Positions 23,852 to 64,000 of a stretch of DNA of 64,000 bases are shown here, piece after piece (the stretch's first letter is position 1; each line of letters starts with the position of its first letter). This DNA is from the human T2T-CHM13v2.0 reference genome, Homo sapiens. The notes beneath the pieces are model-generated. The model was not told where the DNA came from. It made no database searches and was given only the letters and a program-made list of their open reading frames with translations. The stretch lies in the NCBI RefSeq assembly GCF_009914755.1, contig NC_060940.1. One strand, given 5' to 3'. The translations under genes were made by a program, and so were the position numbers.

Positions 23852-25039
<1,188 letters not shown>

Positions 25040-28000: not shown

Positions 28001-29941
28001 TGTGGCACACGGTATTTCAGAATGGTGGATCCACTCAGAAAGTCCTTTATTCAGGGGTCGGGGCACAGGTGACAGTAGTGTTCTTTATTCTCAAGCCATA
28101 ATTCATCAGTGGCTTGTTTTTAAATTTTCACCACTCTGCTGTTTGATTGCAATGTTTCTGGGCATCTTGATATGGATGGGAAAGGAGAAGCCACCTTCAT
28201 TCTCATTGGTTTCTTTAGTCTGGTGTTTTCTGAACTTGGACTTTGTTTAGCACAGGCTTACTGCATGCCTACTGTGTGTCACTTGCTGAGCTAAGAGTTA
28301 CACATCCACATGGCTTGGTTTCTACCTAAGAATTAAAATCTATGTCCTCCAGGGTAGTCACAGATCCCACGAGAACTCATCTGTGCCCACATGCACGCAT
28401 GTTAATTGCTTTTTCACTTTTGTTACATACCCCCCTTCCCCCCATGTGCCTAGCCTGCCTTTAATTTATTTGATGTTTTTTTGTGGCAGTAAACACACAG
28501 ATTTCCCCCCCCCCCCTTTCCATGCCATTTGTCATAGGAGGATTTTGGAGTGTATCAAAATTGTTTCCTAGACAACTTGTCTGATTGGAGGTGGTGGAGG
28601 GGAGGGGCTGAGACAGAGAGGAGAAAAAGTCAAAATTCTCTGTAAATTGCAAACGTGGTCTGCCTTTCCCAGGCTGTAATAAGTAAGTGCATTTTAAGGA
28701 AGGAGTAAGTTTTGATGCTCGCATTTGCCTGGTGCAATCTGAGATGCCTGTTCCGGCCACGGCAACATCATGCCAGTCCAGGTGGAAGGAATTTCACTGC
28801 ATGTGGCTGAGCTTTCCTGCAAGTGGGTGACAGAGGTGGCAGTTGCTGCTGGCTTGGGCTGCTTGGCCCACAGATTGACTGATGTGGCGGCCCTGCCTGC
28901 TCCTTAGTGTCTCATCGGGCAGTGAGAGGGCATTTCTGGGGCACTGTCCTGGGCAGGGCTCAGGGGGACCTGGTAGAAGGCAAAGCTGTCCCAGGGTACC
29001 TCAACTGCTGCCAGCCAGGACTGACTCGTCTTGAAGGTACCCAATTGGTGTTTTGTTGGCATGGACATTGCAGGGGGTCAGCTTACACCTTTGATTAAAG
29101 GAATACATGAGATTAGGTGAGGCAGCCTGATATGGGGCATCTCCTCTGTGGGGGAGAACAGATTTGGGTTTTGCGTTCTCATGGCGCTGGATCTGGATTT
29201 GAAGGGTGCAGTTTCCTGGCTGTGTGACTTTTGGTGCTTTGCTTTCCCTTGCTGGGCCTTGTTTTTCCTCCATCCTTAGGGAGAGCACCTCATGTCTAGG
29301 GTTGCTGTAAGGATTGGAGAGGATAGATAAGCACCTACTAGTATAGTCAGCATACAGTGACCAGGATTCCAATTCCTGTTTTGCTAATTGCCCTGAAAGA
29401 GCTTCATGACTTTCTGCACAAATGGAAGGGATTATTGTTACCTAAAAATGGGTGGCCTCCAGAGAGTTCCCTGAGATGAATAGTGCATTGGGGAAAGCTA
29501 GGGGTGTTTAGCAGGTCTCATAGGTAGGAAGGCAATGAAATTCTTGCCAGCAGTTTAAGAAAAATTCCTTGCGGGGCGTAGTCTAGTTTCTTAAAATAAA
29601 TTACAAAAATTGAAATACTCATGTATGCATCAGGTAGATTTGATTAGTATAACAAGGTGTTTAATGAAAAATGAAGCTTCCCTTACTCGACGTCCACACA
29701 GCCCCTAGTGGCCCTCCTTGGAGGCAAGCACTGCTGCTCATTTCTTGTGTATCTGGACATGCATGCACACAGCTGTCTACCGTGGTTCTTCACTGGACAG
29801 TATATTTTGGAGACCCTCCATGCGTGTGCAGCTGCCTTGTTCTTTTTCATTGCTGCATAGTGTTCTGTTGTAGAAGTGTATCACAGTAATGTAGGTAGAC
29901 CCTCCCCTGTTGATGGGCATTGAGGTTAGTCCCAGCCTCTT

Positions 29942-30304
29942 TGATATGGTTTGGATGTGTTCCCACTTAAATCTCATCTTGAGTTGTAGCTCCCATAATT
30001 CCCTTGTGTTGTGGGAGGGACCCAGTGGGAGATAATTGACTCATGGGGCGCTTTCCCCCATACTGTTCTCTTGGTAGTGAATAAGTCTCACGAGATCTGA
30101 TGGTTTTATAAGGGGAAACCCGTTTCGCCTAGCTCTTTCATTCTCCTCTTGTCTGCCACCATGTAAGACGTGCCTTTCACCTTCCACCATGGTTGTAAGT
30201 TCCCCCCAGCCACGTGGAACTGTGAGTCCATTAAACCTCTGTCTTTTGTAAATTGCCCAGTCTCAGGTATGTCTTTATCAGCAGCGTGGGAACGGACTAA
30301 TACA
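29942..30304 (+). mobile_element. THE1 (THE1C/D-like) MaLR solo LTR, sense to CMIP
   Basis: TGATATGGTTTGG...GGACTAATACA termini, 363 bp, perfect 5-bp TSD CTCTT at 29937-29941 and 30305-30309. Confidence 0.95.
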
Positions 30305-33300
30305 CTCTTGTTCCTTGAAAGAAAACATTTTCTATTTTTACTGAATGGAGTTGTCTCTATTTTGATGTTCTTTTGCTTAATTCTTTGGGATGGGGGAGCT
30401 GAGCCTCCTTTTGAAGAGGGAAGGGCAGTGTTTCCTGGGGTTATTGCTACCTGGAGTCATGCTTTGTTCTGGCTGAAAGGTCACCAACCAGGGATCCCCC
30501 TCAGAGGGTCTGGCCACTTGGTCTTCCCTGCAGCTGAAGGAACATAGGTGACCAGGGGGCTCTGACAAGGATGCGCTGACTTCCACCCACAGAACAAGGG
30601 TCTGTGCAGCTCCACCTGAGGGCATTGCTTTTTGTTCCCTGACTTCCTGCTTTCCCCAGGATGGAAGCCAGGCCACCCAGCCCCATGGTGGAGGAAGAGA
30701 GGAAGTGAGAGTTTCTCTTCCTTGCTCCTGGCTCTGGTGATGAACCACCCAGTGTATTCAACAGGCACCGAGGGAGACTGTGCGCATTTTGAAAGGAAGC
30801 TTCGCTTACATCAGCAGAGCCCTAACCGAAGGGTGATGAGACGTGCGTGTGGGGGAGGTGTTTGCTGTGTGTATTGAGGCAAAGGAGATGGCAGAGAAAA
30901 TATTTCTGGTGCTGAAATTGGTTCCTGACTTCAGTAGCCATTTCGTTACCCCTCCCATGTGCACAGCGCTCGTCCTGGCATTTGGGGTGTGCAGTGAGGC
31001 CACAGGAAGAGAACACGGCAGACCCAGTGGAGTAGGGGAGTGAGGACCTGGACTTTGAAATCAGACAGGGGAGCTTGAATCCTGCCTCTGCAGTGTCCCA
31101 GGTGGTGACCTTGGGCAGGTCCCCTAGCCTGTGTCCTTATCTGTAAAGCGAGGATCAGAGAAACTTCCTCTTAGCATTGATGTCAGGGTAAATGAGGTGA
31201 GGCCTGGCGGTGCTTTCATGCCTCCATTCAGCAGTTAAGTGTCACCGTTCTAGGCACTCGGAAGAAAACAGGAGCCTGCCCTCGTGGAGCCTGTGTTGGT
31301 GGGAGTGGACAAACAACTAAGTTAAGAGCAAGTAATTATAAAATCCGATGACAGGGATCGTGGAGAAAAGCAAGCAGGGTGGGGCGAGTGGTGGGCTGCT
31401 TTGTACATAGTGGTCAGGGAAGCGGGTGATAGGACTTCCAGGGGGAAGAGCGTTCCAGGTAGAGGGAACAGCAATTGCAAAGGCCCTGAGGGAGGAGATC
31501 ATCTGTGGAAATCACCCAGTAAAGTGGCTTGCACCTGGTACATGTTCTATGATTGTCAGTTTCCTTCCTCCTGCTCTGTGGAGCTGTTATTATCTGTTTA
31601 AAAAATTAATGAGTATGTAGAATGTGCGAGGTGATGGACACACAGGCAGCTCCTTGCCCCGTAAAGCTTCCATTCTTTTGCTTCTGTTGTGTGTTTTTTC
31701 TTTTGTTTTTTTTTTGTTTTGTTTTTTTTTTTTTTTTTTTGCAAACCTGGCTGCCTCCCAATAAATAGTGAAGAATAGCCCTGGTAGCAGTGCCTTAAGA
31801 GATTCTTAAATGACAAAGCCCAGCAGAACTTTGAAAACGCAACTCCCTTTGTCCATAACTACACTCTAAGGATCCTAGGATCTAGAACACACTAGTGCTC
31901 TGATTCACCTCTGGTTTTGCCAGCGAGGAAGGGGTGAGGGGAAGTGTGTCGGCAAAGACCCTTGCAGCTGGCTCAGCAGCCCACCTGGGATTCAAACCCA
32001 GACTCCTGCCTTCCCATGGCATCCTTTGTTCGTGGCTCTACTGCTTTCAAGCTACTGTCAGAAATGGTAGGGTGGACGGAGCGACTAAACTGATTGTGCT
32101 GGGCGAACTCTTTTTGGAGGGAAGCACGTGGTCTGGATCGTCTGGTCCCTGGTGGATATAGGATTTGAGTGTATGGAATCAAACAGCCATCTGGGTGCTT
32201 CCCTTGGGCTGGGCTGGCTGCATCCAGCTCAGGTGGGGTCATATGGAGAAGGAAGATCACACCGGGACTGCTGCTAGCTTCTCTGGGTGTCCTGGGCCAG
32301 TGCCAGTTTCCTTAGAGGTCCAGGATATCTGAAAATTGGAGCACACAGTCTGAGCAGACCCAGGCCTGGCTCTCCTCCCTCGCATGTTGGCTCCCTGTGT
32401 GGACTAGGTGACCCTGTTTACCAACACACACACCGGTGCGAGGCTCTGCAGGGAAGGAGAGCCACGGGTATGGAAGGGGCTGTGTGTTCCCCAGGCAGGC
32501 TAGCTGCCGTAACACGCAGCCCTGGCATCTGGGTGGCTTCATGCAGCCCAGTTCTTGCAGTCCTGCAGGGGTCTCCCGAGGGTTCTGCCCCCTCTTTTTC
32601 TTGTGAAATGGGTCTGCCCTCCCCTAGGTCCTTCATTGTCAGGGGGATGGGGAAAGAGTGAGCACCACAGCCAAGCCGTTTGTAGATCTGGCCGCTTGGT
32701 TGGCTAGAACTCAGACACACGGCCACACGGAGTGCAGGGGAAGACTTGGGAACATGGTTTACATGTGCGTCTGGGAGGAAGAGGAGAGCATGGAAGCGAT
32801 GACTACTCCCACCCCAGCATCCTTGGGATGCAGCAGCAGATCTTGAGGTCTCCAGGGTGCCAAGAGCAGAGCTGCTTCCCTAGAAAGGAAATTCACATGA
32901 CCGTGATCTCATCTGGTTCCTGGGTTTGAGGTTGGGGGCATTTCGGCCAAGCTTGCAGTCTTCTCTGGTGGGGAATAAAGTAGGGTGAGCAAATCCGTTG
33001 TAAGAGATGGACCTATATGTTCCTGGTTGCAACGATATTTATCGTATCCCTACTGTGTGCCGGGCACAGTGCTCATTTAATTTTCACAACAATCCTGTGG
33101 GGTAGGTGTTTATTCCCATTTTACAGATGCTCTAATGGAGTCTCAGATAAAGAGAGCTGGGAGGAAGTAGAGTTTAGTGTCAAAGCCAGGTCTGACCCCG
33201 TGTCTGTGTGGGTCCATCAATGTATATGCACCTGGTAGATGCACATGAAACTATTTCAGCCTCCTGCAGAAACATCTTAGGTAGAAATAAGTGAGCTTTT

Positions 33301-56280: not shown

Positions 56281-58149
56281 TGAATTCTTAAGGGGTAGAT
56301 ACAGGGCAGGGTATGGACTGTGCATCCAGGTCCCCTCCTTTCCCACTGAAGGCAATGGCTGCCCTCCCTGTGTGAAGGCGGCTGGACTGTCGTCATCAGC
56401 ACTCAGAACTCCTTGCTCCTGCATGTAAGACTCCGGGATCATATAATATTTAAAAATGCAGCAGCTTAAACACAGCAGAAGCTTGTTTGTTTTCTCTCGT
56501 ATAAAGGAAATCTAGGGTCTAAGTCGTGTGAGGGTTGCCGTGGCTGGCCTGTGGCTTTGAGGGCCTAGGGCCCCTCCATGTGGCTGCTCCTCCGTTCTTA
56601 GCACCATGGGCCGAGAGAGGCTCAAGTTCCTGCCATTTTGCCTGCCTTCCAGTTAGTGGGAAATGGGATCTTACCATTTCGTTTGCATTCCAGTTAGCAG
56701 AAAGTGGGAGTGGCAGGGGAGTGGAAAAGGACTTCTGCCCTGTTAAGGTGACTTCTGCTTTCACCTTACTGGCCAGACCATCATGTGGCATCCCCGGCTG
56801 CAAGAGCATCTGGGAAATGTAAGTGGGAGCCATGAATCCCACCCCACAGCAGGATTTTTATTATTGAGAAGGGAGAGGAGGCCAGAATAGGGTGTTGGCA
56901 TGGGCCACGCTAGCCATCTCTGCCACTGCCCTTCCCCCCCACCCCAGAAAGTATCCCAGGGCCAGTCTCCACTTCACTCTTGGGAAGGCGAAGGCTGGTC
57001 AGGGAGACACATTGCGTGGGCATTCCCTCAAGCTTCCGGAACAGGCCATCCTTTGAAAGCCACTCACATGTAGCACAGTGGAAGGAAGCAAGGCTTTTAC
57101 AGGGGCAGAGGGAGTGGTAAGGTATCAGCAAGCCGTAGAGTAGAACAGGGAGCCGCCAGTTCTGCATGGCGCCAGCAGCTCCTGGGAAGGGGTTGTAGGG
57201 CCGAGATTTTGGCGTCCTGTATGGAGAGGAGCAGCCTGCCGGAGAAGATAGTGAGCTCCCTGAGAAAGCAGGTGTGCAAGCAAAGGTCAGATGGACATGT
57301 GTCAGTCAGGGAGGCCACCGAGTGCGTTCTAGATCCAGAAAGCACATTCATGGAATTCCATTGAGGAATTATGGAAGGGATCTCATGCAGGGATGGTGAA
57401 TGCACAGACCATGTGTGGTCCCCTCCACCCTCCAGCCCTTGTTGGTCCTCCTGGTGCCCTGCAGAGCCGCAGCCACCCCAGAGCCTCCCGGTGGGAAGAA
57501 GTTGGCACCTGAGATAAACCCATTTGCTTTTCCCACTTGAATTCAGTTCTCTTGTTCCTATAGGTGTGGACGTTGAGGGCCAGCCTGGAAGCGCCATATC
57601 CAGAGGCACTCAGGGAGGGGAGCAGGAGACCCAGGGCTCTGGGATTCAGGTCCCTCTGTCACACCCTGCCCTTCTTCTGGGTCTTTCTTCCCCACCTCCC
57701 AGCCAGAAATTGCCTCCTGGAGCCAGCCCAGCCTCGTCTTGTTCATTGGAGCTCAGTTGGAGACCCGTCCTCACCCGAAGCAGGGTGAGAGGACAGCACC
57801 TGCCACCTTTAAGTCTGGGCTTTGCTGGACGCCTAGGAGAAGCCGGGTCCTCAGGCACTCGAGTGGGAAGTGAAAGTGTGCACCAGCTCTTTAGTTCTGC
57901 TATTGACCGGACAGGGTTTTTCCTGGGGGGAGGGGGAAGGAGCTGCTGTGTTTTCTTTGCTTAATCTGGCCTTGCCCCACAGAGAAAACACATGCGTAGC
58001 CTCCATCCTGTTTGTAAAGAGGGCGGTCAGCTACTCGAAGTTGCTCGCCTGGAAAAACTGGGAAGATGTCATCTCCTATGGTAAGGAGGTGGGGGCTACA
58101 GGTAGCTGAGGTGGGCAATGAATGTCTTGAGGGACTGTCAGCATGTGAC

Positions 58150-58650
58150 CTTTTTTTAAATGATGATAAAATACACGTAACATAAAATGGGCCATTTTAA
58201 CCAGTTTTAAGTGTGCAGTTCATTGAGTACGTTCACATTGTTGCACAACCATCACCCCCATCCATCTCCAGAACTTTCTCATCTTCTCAAACTGAAACTG
58301 TCCCCATTAAATGTTAACTCCTAGTCCCCCTCCCCCAGCCCCTGGCAGCCACCATTCTCTCTTCATTTTCTATGACTTTGACTCCTTTAGGGACCACATA
58401 TGAATGGGTTAATATAGGATTTGTCTTTTTCGTGTCTGGGTTATGATTATTATTATTTTGCTTTTTTTGTTGAGGTGAGATTTACATAACATAAAATCAA
58501 CCATTTTAAAGTGAAGAATTCAGTGATATTTAGCCACTACCACCTCTGTCTAGTTCCAAAACATCGTCACCCCAGAAGGAAATCCTGTACCCGTTAACAG
58601 TCACTCCTCTTTCCCCCTACCCCCGGCTCTTGAAAACCAACATATGACTT
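58150..58650 (-). mobile_element. Two L1M 3' fragments
   Basis: taacataaaat...ccattttaa...gtgcagttca; ccagcccctggcagccaccattct. Confidence 0.75.
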
Positions 58651-58793
58651 TAAATTTGATTTGCATTTGCATATATTAGGCCCTCTACAAATGTATGCTG
58701 AATGAATGAAAGAAAATCCTGGCCAGCTGAGAAATAATGATGAAAGCTTGGATTTCTTGAGTGCCTACTTTGTGCCAGGTCCACATAAGCATG

Positions 58794-58950
58794 TGTGGTT
58801 CTCAGCCCTGGCCGCACAATGGGATCACCTGGGGATCTTCGTAACCCCCAAAACCCAGGCCCCACCCCAGAGACGCTGATGGCTTTGGTCTGGGGGAGGT
58901 CTGGGCCATAGCCTTTTCCGAGCGATTCTAACATGAGAGTGAGTGGTAGG
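58794..58950. mobile_element. MER5A-like hAT element
   Basis: gtggttctcagccctggccgcac...atcacctgggga...caggccccaccccagaga...gattctaa. Confidence 0.65.
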
Positions 58951-59077
58951 CAGTATTTCCTTGGGTCATAGCAGTCCTTTGGGGTAGGTAATATTATCTC
59001 CATTTTGTGGATAGGGAAACAGGTTATAGAGGTCAGGTAACTTACCCAAGCTCTCTCAGCTTCAAATCTCCATCTGA

Positions 59078-59467
<390 letters not shown>

Positions 59468-60424
59468 TTATGTGTTTGCTATGGGGTAAAATAATTAAAA
59501 ACTATCTAATTGGGATTTATGGGGTGCCAGCTGTATGCCAGGCACTGATTCACGTTCTCTCATTTTACCTTTACAGCCACCTTGTGCAAGGGGACTGTTA
59601 TGATGACATCAGTTTCCCCAACATTGTTGGGAAAGGACGGGGGTGGTTTGCCTCACTTATCATGGAGGGAGTCTCCCCTTGGCCCTCCTGGTGGGGACCT
59701 CAGCTGAAGCAGAGTGGGAGAGAAGCCTGTGTGTGATGTCAGGGTGGGGTCCAAAGTTGAGGCTGAATGCAGTGTTTTCACGGGATGGCTTTGACATCGG
59801 TGAGAGCTGCTCTGCCCAGTTTGAACTAGTGGTGGGCCATTGAATGGAGCTGGAGAAGCTGTGCACACCTCAGGGCTTTGGCCCGGCTGTCTCCCTCAGC
59901 TGCACATGGTTTGTCCCTCCTATTTGCGTTTGAGATTTTTGATGGCTGTGGGACTCATGATTTATTCAACAAATATTGTTGAGACCTGATAGCTGGGCGC
60001 CGTCTGGGGCTCTTAGGAATATGCGGTGATGAGACAGGCACAGTCTCCATTATCCTCATGGTCTGGCAGGTGGTACGGATTGTTGTGTCACCCTCATCTG
60101 GGTGTGCCGGGCCCTGTCTCTGCATGAGCTCCCTCATTCCAGCCTCATGGCAGGTGTACAGGTGAGGGCCTTGAGCGACTGTGTGTAACACATGAGGACA
60201 GGGCCGCTCAGGAAGGCTGAGAAGCTTTCCCAACGTTACACAGCTTGTGAGAAGCGGAGACTGAAATTGAATGTGAGCTGATGGCTTCAGAGCTTGACTA
60301 AGTAACACTGACAGATAATTATGAAAGAGGAAGTCCAGGGAGCATCTGCGTGGGATGGGGCCATGCCAGGGCCAGAGCGGCTCCCAGAGGGTGCTGTTTC
60401 AACTGAGGTCTTGGGGGGATGGGT

Positions 60425-61170
<746 letters not shown>

Positions 61171-62383
61171 CATAGCAGGGGAGAGTGAGGCTGGTGGGCA
61201 GGCAATCTAAGGCCTGGAGGTGAGTGGGTGCTTGGCTTTGGAGGGGTGCTGGGCGCCTAAGTACCTGGAGGAGGAGCTCCTGGAGGGGAGGGTGAGACAG
61301 CAGAGGGCCTTTTAAGTCATGGGGCAGACTGGGAGTTGGTCACCTGCTAAGTAGCTTCTGGAGAGAGGACCTCTGTTCCCACTTGAGCCTGGTGGACATG
61401 CGTGTCCCAGGAGGACGGTGTGTGTTGGGGAAGCCCCTGCCCCTCCCCCACCTAGGAGCTTCCCTTTCACAGTGACAGGAAGAGGGAGAGCTAGGAGCAT
61501 AATGTGCTTTGGGCAGGAAATGCAGGCTGCATCTTCCCATTGCTGGAGAAGGTGACAAACCCGGGCTTCGGAGTCACTGGGGCTGGGTTTGAATCCAGAC
61601 TCCACCACATCCTAAGCTGAGCCCGTTCCCAACTGTAAAATGGGGGTGAGATAGGGCCTGACTCACAGGGTCAGCCCTGGGGTCAGCGAGGCAGGTCATG
61701 GGACGCTGTTGGTGCACAGGCATGCCTGCTTGCTCGTCCGTTCAGCAGATGGCGGTGGCGCGTCCACTGTGCACCAGGCACCATTGCAGGCACGGAGCAA
61801 AGCAGGCATCATCCTGGCCTACTTGGAGCCCCCATTCTACTGGAGGAGGGGAAAATGAACACGGAAATATAGAATCTTGTCTGCTGCCACTAAGTGCTGT
61901 GGAGGAAACCATCAGACGAGGGAGGACAGAAGTATTGGTATGAATGGGGAGGGTGTGGCGTCTGTGTGTGGTGGCCTTTGGAATAGGGTGACCAAAGAAA
62001 ATCTGGATGAGAGGTGACACTTGAGCAGGTTTGGAAAAGGTAAGGGAGGAAGCTGTGCATGTGCAAAGGCCACGGGGCAGCGGCTAAAGGAGGTAAAGGA
62101 GCCATCCACAGCATGTGCAAAGGCCCTGGGGCAGCAATTTACCTGGTTTTTTTTCTAGGAATGCAAGGAGGTAAATGTGGATGGAGCAGAATGTGCCTTG
62201 AGGAGGGTGGAAGGAGGTGAGCTCTGTGAGTCACTAGTGGGGTCAGATGGTGTAGGGCCTTGTAAGAACTTTGGCCGTTAACTCTGAGGGAGAGGAGAGA
62301 GCTGTGTCTGCTCTAATACATTCAGGAAAGTGGCAGCTCTGAAGACCGAAGTGCCTCCTGGCTTGCCTCTCTCCCTCCCGCAG

Positions 62384-62441
62384 CCTCTTCCTCTTCCTCT
62401 TCCTCTTCCTCTTCCTCTTCCTCTCCCTCTCCCTCTCCCTG
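62384..62441. repeat. Pure pyrimidine (CTCTTC)n(CTCTCC)n tract
   Basis: Read directly from the sequence. Confidence 0.9.
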
Positions 62442-63819
62442 ACCCTCCCCCAGCTGCCCACTGTTTTGTGGGGATTGATTGGGCCCATTGAGGCCTGCTG
62501 CCTGGAGTAGCAGCCTTGCCCACAGTCCAGTCTGGGGACCTTTCTCGGCCATCCCCTCCTCCAGCTATCCTCAGTGTTGGTCACTTATGGCTTTTGCTAT
62601 TTATATAGCACAGTGGTTTATAAACTCTGCTTCTAGAATTTCGCAACCCGTCCTGCAGCATGTTATCTGTCCAGGCAGATAGTGGCGATCTTTATCCAAA
62701 TCAAAGGACTGAAATTAAGGGGATGGAATTGTCTGCATTTTATGTTTTCCACCCAACATATTTTGTCATAAACTGGGAACTTGTGTAAGGTGGCATCCAG
62801 TTTAGTTCAATCCTGTATGTAATCATTTCAAGCTTAATAAATTAGTTAATATTTGTTAAACACCTACTGTGTCTTGGGGTTTCTGCGAGATGTGAGATTC
62901 ATTGGCGGACAAACCAGATAGCGTTTTTGCCAAGTCACCGAGATAGTTTCAGGTCCTTGGCCATCATCTTTTTCCACCAACTCCAGGTCAGCTCAGGGGC
63001 CCACCAGGTGGAAGTCGCCCTTCCCTGGCGGACCTCGCCCGTTCCCATTCCTTCTGGCAAAGTCAGATTTGGTGAAAAGGCCACAGCAGCTGGGTGGAGT
63101 TCCACTTGCCAGCTCGAGGAAGAGTTCTGGGAGGCACGGGAAGCCAAAACCGCCTGTGAAGGAGGCCTGGTGCAGCTCAGAAAGCCCTGGCTCTGGCCGA
63201 GGTTTGGGATGTGTGGCTGCCATGGCAACCCGTCTCCCCGACGAAGGGTAGACGGGTTGGGCGCCGAACGCAGGGTGTTGCAGGTTGGGCTCCATTTTGA
63301 CTCTGGTGGAGAACGATCACCTGGCTGCAAAACCAACCTCCCCGCCCAGTACAAGCATCTCCTCTTCCCCCTTGGGCCACGAGGGTGGGGGACTTGAGGC
63401 AGGAGTGGGTTTTTGTAGTGGGATCATTGGGTAATCATCTCCGGCTCTCTGCTGCAGTTGGTGCGCACAGACCCGGCTAGTTTAAGGCCATTGATGGGAC
63501 TCCTGTAGACGCTAAGCGATGGAAACATTGTGCGCATCCAGTACTCGGCGTGCTCTGGATGGGGCTGGAAGATGCCAGGTGGGCTTCTGAAACGAGTGTG
63601 GGGTTCACTCTACCTTTGATCTTTGCCTGCCCGGGTGTCCTCATTCATTTAACTCTTGGCTTCCTTATTCCTCTGTCCTTATCCCCTTCCTAGGAGTGGG
63701 GTCTGCTCAGATATACCCTCTTCCCTGCCTCTTTCCCTCCCTCCCCTCCTGCCTTCCTCCTCCTGCCCCTGAAAACCTCTTTTTTTTTCTGTCCAAGGCT
63801 TTCTTGGGCGAGTTTAGAG

Positions 63820-63935
63820 CAGCAGTTTCCAACTTGAGCTGCGCATTGGAATTACTTGAGGAGCTTAAAAAATGTCCTGATGCCTGACTCCACCCCCAGA
63901 GGTTGAGATTCATTTGCTGTGTATGGGGCTCAGAC
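63820..63935. mobile_element. MER5-like fragment
   Basis: cagcagtttccaacttgagctgcgcattggaattacttgaggagcttaaaaaa...ccacccccagag. Confidence 0.6.
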
Positions 63936-64000
63936 GTCTTATTTTTTATTCCGACATCATTTGCTTGAATAGCTGTGGAGTATTCTATTGCGTATGTATA

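What the first reader, a model, noticed from the sequence alone, without database searches (positions are those of the whole stretch)
30107..30200. THE1 LTR has all parts of an in-frame alternative first exon for CMIP
Seen, in sense orientation: TATAAG (30107-30112); a Kozak start-stop GCCACCATGTAA (ATG 30161); a second, perfect Kozak CCACCATGG (ATG 30189); then ATG GTT followed by GTAAGT (30195-30200). This donor is phase 0, the same as CMIP exon 1, so splicing to exon 2 would give Met-Val fused in frame and replace the first 100 aa. Established: THE1 LTRs can act as promoters (e.g. THE1B-CSF1R in Hodgkin lymphoma), and CMIP has a known N-truncated isoform, Tc-mip, from an alternative first exon. 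Inference: a possible undescribed primate-specific LTR-driven PH-truncated CMIP isoform. The exonic side of the donor (GTT) is weak.
Basis: partly seen in the sequence, partly recalled or inferred. Interest (0 to 1): 0.7.

Follow-up and report, generated by a model that had tools for sequence, protein, structure and literature searches.

The report
Ordinary solo THE1 LTR in CMIP
This is an ordinary, roughly 30-55-million-year-old solitary THE1 retroviral LTR in the first intron of CMIP; it still has a promoter-like box, start codons and splice donors, but most sampled relatives share them and nothing shows this copy makes a CMIP transcript.

Summary
They lie in a solitary LTR, window 29942-30304 (363 nt, TG..CA), flanked by a 5-nt target duplication, in the sense of CMIP. 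It belongs to the THE1 group of MaLR elements. Its indel markers place it between print-labelled THE1B and THE1A. Distances give about 30-55 My.

Most of the "parts" are family features. Among 119 other copies, 107 keep the second ATG, 105 keep the downstream GT donor, and 81 have an open phase-0 frame between them. Only the GTAAGT hexamer and the +4 G are private to this copy.

Two curated chr16 transcripts that start in THE1-like LTRs (CNTNAP4 NM_138994.5, LINC02137) use the donor homologous to 30221|30222, not 30194|30195. Their start sites map to 30139-30142.

None of the 10 RefSeq CMIP models starts in the LTR, and four paper searches found no such transcript. The encoded protein would be nearly Tc-mip.

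Verdict: a real element with real coding potential, but generic and without evidence of use. Interest is low.

The parts
29937..29941 (.). left copy of the 5-nt target-site duplication (CTCTT)
   Evidence: the same five bases directly flank both ends of the LTR
29942..30304 (+). solitary THE1-type (ERVL-MaLR) LTR, 363 nt, TG..CA, in the sense of CMIP, in CMIP intron 1
   Evidence: all 40 scored places match over about the full length, 86-88% identity for the 39 non-self, out of 5718 first-look candidates; 72-79% identity to print-labelled THE1A/B/D copies; window flanks give 0 hits against 232 flanks of 116 copies, so no internal part is attached
30305..30309 (.). right copy of the target-site duplication (CTCTT)
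30037..30043 (+). AP-1 consensus heptamer (TGACTCA), nearly private to this copy
   Evidence: one of 9 matches in the window (10.6 expected by chance); the same heptamer in 1 of 119 other copies
30107..30112 (+). TATA-like box TATAAG
   Evidence: a TATAAG/TATAAA hexamer at this place in 75 of 119 other copies (25 of 29 nearest)
30139..30142 (+). inferred transcription start (start of R), by homology only
   Evidence: the SQOR gene start and the CNTNAP4 NM_138994.5 start map to 30139, the LINC02137 NR_187253.1 start to 30142; 27-30 nt after the TATA-like hexamer ends (32-35 nt from its first T)
30161..30166 (+). first ATG followed at once by TAA (start-stop mini-ORF) in a strong context
   Evidence: ATG plus stop at this place in 96 of 119 other copies
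30189..30221 (+). second ATG and open 11-codon frame up to the family donor; phase 0, like CMIP exon 1
   Evidence: 33 nt with no stop; the same frame is phase 0 in 92 and open in 81 of 119 other copies
30195..30200 (+).
   Evidence: GTAAGT here in 0 of 119 other copies, GT here in 84 of 119; U1 duplex -5.4 kcal/mol; no annotated THE1-initiated transcript examined uses this site
30222..30227 (+). GTGAGT, the donor of the family (exon end 30221)
   Evidence: homologous to the exon-1 donor of CNTNAP4 NM_138994.5 and of LINC02137 NR_187253.1; GTGAGT or GTAAGT here in 99 of 119 other copies; U1 duplex -5.5 kcal/mol
30230..30235 (+). ATTAAA, the LTR's own polyadenylation-type signal, 8 nt after the family donor
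   Evidence: ATTAAA or AATAAA here in 100 of 119 other copies

Best explanation
Window 29942-30304 is a solitary LTR of the THE1 group of MaLR (ERVL-MaLR) retrotransposons. It inserted in the sense orientation into what is now CMIP intron 1 in an early simian ancestor, and it lost its internal part by recombination between its two LTRs. It still carries the regulatory layout that the sampled well-kept copies of the family share. That layout is a TATA-like box, a start site about 30 nt further on (30139-30142), a start-stop mini-ORF, a second ATG, a splice donor at 30221|30222, and a poly(A)-type signal just behind it. Three private substitutions add a second good-looking donor at 30194|30195 and a G after the second ATG. 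If the LTR fired, its 80-83-nt exon (or a 53-56-nt one) could join CMIP exon 2, which lies 157 kb downstream. The product would be a Tc-mip-like protein of 684 or 675 residues. The most likely state is a silent or at best rarely used cryptic promoter-exon cassette, one of thousands of the same build, and not an established CMIP isoform. Shown: the element, its bounds, its family, the motifs, the frames, and the homology of start and donor to used sites elsewhere. Inferred: the start site in this copy, its silence, and any splicing to CMIP.
For: Element and solo state. The LTR has TG..CA ends and a 5-nt direct repeat. Full-length matches to genomic copies reach 86-88% identity. Neither window flank resembles any of 232 flanks of 116 copies.

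Family. Identity is 72-79% to LTRs named in print as THE1B (CSF1R, CRH, TNFRSF11A), THE1A (SQOR) and THE1D (IL2RB). Cluster and indel analysis place it between THE1B and THE1A.

Age. The private branch is 0.080 substitutions per site (0.069 without CpG sites). That gives 31-36 My at 2.2e-9 per site per year and 46-53 My at 1.5e-9. Print says THE1 is simian-only and more than 40 My old (PMC10735291, Results read).

Generic layout. Counts over 119 other copies are.

Used start and donor elsewhere. Of 2974 distinct chr16 first exons, 54 lie within one masked repeat, 21 passed my size filter, 12 were fetched, and 2 proved THE1-like in sense. Both use the homologue of 30221|30222 and start at the homologue of 30139-30142. 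The legend of Fig. [quoted passage not shown]

No use here. None of the 10 RefSeq/Gnomon CMIP models (8 different first exons) starts in the LTR, and no other RNA or CAGE/promoter feature overlaps it. Paper searches found nothing relevant.

Low prior. Print reports activation in about 1% of DUX4-bound THE1B copies (PMC3836709, Table 1 passage).
Against: The absence of a RefSeq model is weak evidence. RefSeq lists only 3 CAGE clusters and 3 promoters on all of chr16. Rare or tissue-restricted LTR transcripts are often unannotated. I could not see RNA-seq junctions, CAGE data or the supplements of the RACE-seq study (PMC6558280) that list active THE1 LTRs.

This copy is well kept where it matters: box, start region, both ATGs, both donors. 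It also has an AP-1 consensus that the sampled copies almost never have (1 of 119).

CMIP exon 2 already accepts four different upstream exons in the annotation.

The 119 comparison copies are the best-scoring neighbours of four seeds, so they over-represent well-kept copies.
Confidence: 0.85

Rival explanations
1. The LTR is a real, condition-specific alternative promoter and first exon of CMIP. When THE1 LTRs are derepressed, transcription starts near 30140 and splices from 30221 or 30194 to exon 2. After the start-stop mini-ORF is bypassed or re-initiated from, translation gives a PH-truncated, Tc-mip-like protein.
For: All parts are present and in frame. Start and donor are homologous to sites used by curated transcripts. 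CNTNAP4 NM_138994.5 is an annotated case of an intronic THE1-like LTR giving promoter, ATG and donor in frame. THE1 LTRs produce 'intragenic ... new shorter isoform' transcripts in Hodgkin lines (PMC6558280, passage). CMIP is induced in Hodgkin-Reed-Sternberg cells, although NF-kB represses its proximal promoter (PMC8068179, passages).
Against: No transcript model, paper or annotated feature supports it. CMIP occurs 0 times in the main text of PMC6558280. The acceptor is 157 kb away, with other first exons in between. Both donors pair weakly with U1: -5.4 and -5.5 against -10.5 kcal/mol for the CMIP exon 1 donor. The first ATG, in a strong context, is followed by a stop, which should lower use of the second ATG. 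No kappaB consensus lies in the LTR. Only about 1% of bound THE1B copies fire even under DUX4 (PMC3836709).
Confidence: 0.08
2. The LTR works as a distal enhancer or transcription-factor landing site for CMIP, for example through its AP-1 consensus, and not as a promoter or exon.
For: An AP-1 consensus lies at 30037-30043. CMIP intron 1 is dense in annotated enhancers. A RefSeq 'active region' lies at 30571-30910, 267 nt after the LTR end.
Against: No annotated enhancer overlaps the LTR itself. AP-1 matches in the window are at chance level: 9 found, 10.6 expected. I could see no chromatin data.
Confidence: 0.05
3. The similarity is an artefact and the stretch is not a retroelement remnant at all.
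For: Nothing found.
Against: All 40 places scored give full-length matches. The element has TG..CA ends and a 5-nt target duplication. It is similar to five LTRs named in print.
Confidence: 0.01

Closest known systems
CNTNAP4 NM_138994.5: curated RefSeq isoform whose first exon lies in an intronic THE1A-like LTR (chr16, T2T 82,365,967-82,366,021)
   Same: It is a sense LTR in intron 1 of the host gene. The start maps to window 30139 and the donor to window 30221|30222. The start codon lies inside the LTR exon, in frame with exon 2, and replaces the normal N-terminus.
   Different: It is annotated from transcript evidence, while the CMIP LTR is not. It uses a third ATG (10 coding nt, phase 1), which in the CMIP copy reads ACG. 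Its acceptor is 6.5 kb away, not 157 kb. That LTR copy is truncated and lacks the first ATG.
THE1B-CSF1R in Hodgkin lymphoma (Lamprecht 2010, seen only through the review PMC5134097 and PMC6558280, passages)
   Same: It is a solitary THE1 LTR that supplies the start site and a splice donor to a host gene. The LTR of that locus is 78% identical to this one.
   Different: It lies upstream of the gene and leaves the protein whole, and it is experimentally shown. It belongs to a different cluster: window-to-set identity is 0.797 against 0.875 for the window's own set. It keeps the ~10-nt segment that the CMIP copy lacks.
Tc-mip (CMIP isoform 2, NM_030629; PMC1865475)
   Same: The same exons 2-21 would be translated in the same frame, and the PH domain would lose the part encoded by exon 1 (PMC1865475, passages).
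   Different: Tc-mip starts from a non-LTR first exon at window coordinate 74145-74285 (6 codons), 44 kb downstream of the LTR. It has cDNA, Northern blot and protein evidence.
LINC02137 NR_187253.1: curated lncRNA starting in a THE1-like LTR
   Same: The start maps to window 30142 and the donor to 30221|30222.
   Different: It is non-coding and intergenic. That LTR carries the longer spacer typical of the older subfamilies.

Membership tests
THE1 LTR (ERVL-MaLR) | LTR ends TG..CA with a 5-nt target-site duplication (the 5-nt size for this class is recalled, not from a call) | tested here: met
   TG at 29942-43, CA at 30303-04, CTCTT on both sides
THE1 LTR (ERVL-MaLR) | full-length similarity to the many genomic copies of the family | tested here: met
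   5718 first-look candidates; the 39 non-self of 40 scored places cover query positions 1-4 to 360-364 at 86-88% identity
THE1 LTR (ERVL-MaLR) | similarity to copies that papers name as THE1 | tested here: met
   hits in 5 of 10 fetched stretches (CRH, CSF1R and TNFRSF11A as THE1B; SQOR as THE1A; IL2RB as THE1D); 74-79% identity in the alignment
THE1 LTR (ERVL-MaLR) | present in simians only (PMC10735291) | not testable with these tools
   no other primate genome is at hand; the distance-based age of 31-53 My is compatible
subfamily THE1B | keeps both segments that THE1A lost (printed as 226_235 and 303_312 in THE1B coordinates, PMC10735291) | tested here: not met
   the window copy and its 29 neighbours lack the ~10-nt segment but keep the 8-nt one; the three print-labelled THE1B copies keep both
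subfamily THE1A | 226_235del and 303_312delinsTT | tested here: not met
   the first is met and the second is not; identity to the THE1A set is 0.776 against 0.875 to its own set
subfamilies THE1C / THE1D | longer LTR with a 9-nt segment after the second ATG (seen here in the IL2RB THE1D set and in the copies upstream of ALDH1A1, CD48 and TM4SF5 that PMC4419796 lists under THE1C) | tested here: not met
   0 of 9 columns occupied in the window copy; identity to the D set is 0.741
LTR-derived alternative first exon of a host gene | sense orientation upstream of an acceptor, with a start site and donor homologous to used ones | tested here: met
LTR-derived alternative first exon of a host gene | start codon in frame with the downstream coding exons | tested here: met
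   6 nt or 33 nt, open, phase 0
LTR-derived alternative first exon of a host gene | transcript evidence (cDNA, model, capped 5' ends, junction reads) | tested here: not met
   0 of 10 CMIP models and no other RNA in intron 1; nothing in print. RNA-seq, CAGE and paper supplements could not be seen, so this covers annotation and searchable text only

The most novel reading that the evidence does not exclude
This LTR could be the 'alternative mechanism' that CMIP researchers ask for. NF-kB represses the proximal CMIP promoter, yet CMIP is induced in Hodgkin-Reed-Sternberg cells of lymphoma with minimal-change nephrotic syndrome (PMC8068179, passages). In the same cell type, THE1 LTRs are switched on genome-wide by NF-kB and inflammatory signals, and some give shorter intragenic isoforms (PMC6558280, passages). 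A sense THE1 LTR in CMIP intron 1 that has an intact box, start region, in-frame ATG and two donors, plus a nearly private AP-1 consensus, could then drive a Tc-mip-like, PH-truncated CMIP in such cells.
Probability: 0.05. Interest if true: 0.55.

Novelty: already known. Interest (0 to 1): 0.18.

Why it matters
As it stands it matters little. It is one well-kept copy of a family with tens of thousands of members (more than 37,000 THE1 loci per PMC5134097). Its "in-frame first exon" is a built-in property of that family's R region, and RefSeq already annotates the same arrangement for CNTNAP4.

The check is useful as calibration. A sense THE1 LTR ahead of any phase-0 exon will look like this, so the pattern alone should not be scored high.

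If junction reads were found, the locus would link LTR derepression with the unexplained induction of CMIP and Tc-mip in T cells and Hodgkin cells, which bears on nephrotic syndrome.

Tried and rejected
Donor scoring with an empirical weight matrix. I planned to fetch exon-dense chr16 stretches to build one. In its place I used U1 duplex energies and the donors actually used by annotated THE1-initiated transcripts. MaxEntScan and SpliceAI are not at hand.

Exact subfamily name. No repeat library is at hand. I used copies named in print as anchors. The window LTR as query found no THE1 LTR in the three stretches upstream of WNT5A or at the 5' ends of IL23R and THOC5 (5 of 10 fetched stretches without a hit), and these were dropped. 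Of 9 genes that PMC4419796 lists under THE1C, I could fetch only 3 upstream stretches. Each held one THE1-like LTR of the long, THE1D-like type. That these are the THE1C copies meant by the paper is my inference. Result: not C or D, and between B and A. The RepeatMasker name stays open.

Other checks. No kappaB consensus lies in the LTR: 17 matches in the window, 19.35 expected, the nearest at 30491-30500. The AP-1 site is at chance level for the window. No Rfam match at E up to 1 in 29000-31500. There is no second THE1-like LTR in the window. The cluster of three private substitutions in 30192-30200 is mildly more than the private branch rate predicts, by my own rough Poisson estimate and not a tool result. 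I give it no weight, because orthologues could not be compared.

Papers. THE1+CMIP gave 23 papers, of which 20 were listed; 19 were climate or environment papers and one was unrelated biology, by title and abstract. CMIP+THE1B as whole words gave 0. CMIP+LTR+'alternative promoter'+transposable gave 0. CMIP+LTR gave 6, none relevant by title and abstract. Lamprecht 2010 and Audard 2010 (PMC2890576) are not held, and I know them only through citing papers. Supplements are closed. The RACE-seq peak lists of PMC6558280 and the DUX4 tables of PMC3836709 could name this LTR, and I could not see them.

A slip. My first bounds (29943-30306) were one base short at the 5' end and two bases long at the 3' end, and one search corrected them. 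Searches used the first bounds. The 'LTR positions' printed count from 29943.

Full report
1. The observation.

One search shows every motif at the stated place:
- TATAAG at 30107-30112;
- GCCACCATGTAA with ATG at 30161 and an immediate TAA;
- CCACCATGG with ATG at 30189;
- GTT followed by GTAAGT at 30195-30200;
- ACT|GTGAGT with the last exonic base at 30221.

The annotation gives CMIP exon 1 a coding part of 300 nt (24077-24376). Exon 2 lies at window coordinate 187228, outside the window and 157 kb downstream, and is entered in phase 0. ATG 30189 to 30194 is 6 nt. ATG 30189 to 30221 is 33 nt and open, 11 codons. Both donors are therefore in phase.

2. What the stretch is.

The motifs sit in a 363-nt element, 29942-30304. 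It starts TG, ends CA, and is flanked on both sides by CTCTT (29937-29941 and 30305-30309). My first bounds were one base short at the 5' end and two bases long at the 3' end, and one search corrected them.

A search of the reference genome found 5718 first-look candidates. All 40 scored places matched over practically the full length. The 39 non-self places were 86-88% identical.

Neither 1-kb flank of the window LTR resembles any of 232 flanks of 116 fetched copies. By contrast, 36 of those 232 flanks share 200 nt or more with the flanks of at least five other copies, which is what an attached internal part looks like. So this is a solitary LTR with its target duplication intact, in the sense of CMIP. 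It is the only THE1-like LTR in the window. Rfam has nothing here.

3. Family.

- THE1B at CSF1R (PMC5134097, passages, with hg38 coordinates), at CRH and at TNFRSF11A (PMC6558280, passages).
- THE1A at the SQOR start (PMC10735291, Results read);
- THE1D at IL2RB. This label is recalled from Cohen 2011, which I did not see. PMC6558280 names a THE1D at WNT5A, which I did not find.

The window LTR hit an LTR in 5 of the 10 stretches fetched. Identities were 74-79% in a joint alignment.

I then took the 29 best genomic neighbours of each of four seeds and compared sets.
- Within-set median identities are 0.889 (window set), 0.887 (CSF1R set), 0.833 (IL2RB set) and 0.900 (SQOR set).
- Between sets, the window set stands at 0.809 to the CSF1R set, 0.803 to the SQOR set and 0.766 to the IL2RB set.
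- The CSF1R set stands at only 0.746 to the SQOR set.
- The window copy itself is at 0.875 to its own set and at 0.797, 0.776 and 0.741 to the others.

Indel characters agree with this. The window copy and its set lack a segment of about 10 nt that the THE1B- and THE1D-labelled copies have and THE1A lacks. This fits the printed '226_235del' of PMC10735291. They keep an 8-nt segment that only THE1A lacks, the printed '303_312delinsTT'.

Three LTRs upstream of ALDH1A1, CD48 and TM4SF5, genes that PMC4419796 lists under THE1C, are of the long THE1D-like type, with a 9-nt segment that the window copy lacks.

Conclusion: THE1 group of ERVL-MaLR, not C or D, on the line from THE1B to THE1A. The exact library name is left open. 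No inner genes were needed or are present.

4. Age.

I used pairwise Kimura distances only and built no consensus. The private branch of the window copy is 0.080 substitutions per site, or 0.069 without CpG sites. This gives 31-36 My at 2.2e-9 per site per year and 46-53 My at 1.5e-9. The neighbours were chosen for similarity, so this leans young.

Print says THE1 is found in simians only. It arose after the split from tarsiers (under 70 My). MaLR activity ran until about 45 My ago, and THE1 fossils are more than 40 My old (PMC10735291, Results read). A THE1B upstream of HEY1 is dated 40-75 My by synteny (PMC3836709, passage). I could not test orthologous loci.

5. Are the parts special?

Mostly not. 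Counts over 119 other copies (29 neighbours of the window, and 30 each from the three other sets with their seeds) are:
- a TATAAG or TATAAA hexamer at this place in 75 (0 of 30 in the THE1A set);
- an ATG followed directly by a stop in 96;
- the second ATG in 107;
- a GT at the 30222 donor in 105, and GTGAGT or GTAAGT there in 99;
- the second ATG and that donor in phase 0 in 92, and open in 81;
- an ATTAAA or AATAAA signal just after it in 100.

What is private to this copy is the GTAAGT hexamer at 30195-30200 (0 of 119, though 84 have a GT there) and the G after the second ATG. An AP-1 consensus at 30037-30043 is nearly private, occurring in 1 of 119 others. At that place 76 of 119 copies carry a homeobox-type heptamer instead.

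These copies are best-scoring neighbours, so they are better kept than the average family member.

6. Which start and donor does the family use?

Of 2974 distinct first exons annotated on chr16, 54 lie with start and donor inside one masked repeat. Of those, 21 passed a size filter (exon 40-120 nt, repeat 150-2500 nt). I fetched 12, and 2 proved to be THE1-like LTRs in sense: LINC02137 NR_187253.1 and CNTNAP4 NM_138994.5, both curated.

In an alignment with the window LTR, both first exons end at the homologue of 30221|30222. Their starts map to 30142 and 30139, and the SQOR gene start also maps to 30139. [quoted passage not shown] Reading that legend as start-to-donor is my own interpretation.

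None of the three uses the homologue of 30194|30195.

CNTNAP4 NM_138994.5 is a close precedent. It has an intronic sense LTR, and its coding part starts inside the LTR exon (10 nt) in frame with exon 2. It uses a third ATG, which in the window copy reads ACG.

By U1 pairing the two CMIP-LTR donors are equal, at -5.4 and -5.5 kcal/mol. Both are much weaker than the CMIP exon 1 donor at -10.5.

7. How it would work, and how likely.

If the LTR fired, transcription would start some 30 nt after the box. The leader before the first ATG would be only 19-22 nt. That ATG is in a strong context and is followed at once by a stop. From established knowledge of scanning, such a start-stop lowers but does not abolish use of the next ATG, 28 nt further on.

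The LTR's own poly(A)-type signal lies 8 nt after the family donor. A transcript that is not spliced would therefore end within the LTR. That U1 binding at the donor holds this signal down is an inference by analogy with other retroviral 5' LTRs.

Spliced to exon 2, the message would encode 2 or 11 LTR-derived residues plus the 673 residues of exons 2-21. That gives 675 or 684 aa, against 679 aa for Tc-mip, which has 6 own residues (PMC1865475, passages). The protein would thus be Tc-mip in all but its tip.

Evidence of use is nil. None of 10 RefSeq/Gnomon CMIP models, with 8 different first exons, starts in the LTR. No other RNA is annotated in intron 1 apart from PPIAP51 and MIR7854. No CAGE, promoter or enhancer feature overlaps the LTR. 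CMIP is not named in the main text of the THE1 RACE-seq paper. Four paper searches gave nothing.

Print puts the share of THE1B copies that fire at about 1% of those bound, even under forced DUX4 (PMC3836709, Table 1 passage). In a Hodgkin-type setting, 620 further LTRs were activated (PMC6558280, passage), out of more than 37,000 THE1 loci (PMC5134097).

I put the silent or at most cryptic reading at 0.85, a real condition-specific isoform at 0.08, and an enhancer role at 0.05.

8. Comparison and novelty.

The element is a known kind. LTR-derived in-frame first exons are known, and one is annotated on the same chromosome.

The boldest reading still open concerns Hodgkin cells. [quoted passage not shown] THE1 LTRs are activated by NF-kB and inflammatory signals in those same cells (PMC6558280, passages). 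This LTR could be that mechanism. I give it 0.05, and no kappaB consensus lies in the LTR.

9. Verdict.

The finding is an ordinary family feature without evidence of use. Interest 0.18.

Noticed in passing
window 29942-30304 and loci L002-L030: The window LTR and its 29 nearest copies form a tight cluster (median identity 0.889). The cluster carries one of the two larger deletions that print gives as marks of THE1A, but not the other. It may be a sizeable intermediate lineage between THE1B and THE1A. PMC10735291 reports only two intermediate elements among THE1A copies with internal parts.
   Followed up: partly
loci L041-L070 (neighbours of the CSF1R LTR): The CSF1R-type THE1B copies lack about 14 nt, in five small gaps, that the THE1D, window-type and THE1A sets all have. 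This cluster therefore looks like a side branch, not a direct ancestor of THE1A.
   Followed up: no
window 30211-30216 and the whole LTR: The window copy has 8 CpG against a median of 4 (range 0-9) in its 29 neighbours. Where two of the four LTRs aligned with it have the third ATG intact, it reads ACG, which makes an E-box-type CACGTG.
   Followed up: no
window 30491-30500 and 30571-30910: A perfect kappaB-type consensus lies 187 nt after the LTR end. A RefSeq 'active region_11182' enhancer feature lies 267 nt after it. Both are outside the element.
   Followed up: no
window 57564-64000 (runs on to 74285): Gnomon model XM_054314052.1 has a 16.7-kb internal exon that ends at the Tc-mip first-exon donor. 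It looks like an unspliced-precursor artefact and not a real exon.
   Followed up: no
G000 C5:21,492,645-21,594,459 (seen, not fetched): Six THE1B-type LTR matches have identical scores and lie about 20.3 kb apart on the same strand. This suggests a tandemly repeated 20-kb unit that carries one LTR per unit.
   Followed up: no
G000 C8:66,602,063-66,612,357 (genes table; L032): The RefSeq CRH gene spans about 10 kb in this annotation. A THE1-like LTR lies in the stretch fetched just upstream of the usual CRH unit. From recall, print describes a THE1B that controls placental CRH.
   Followed up: no
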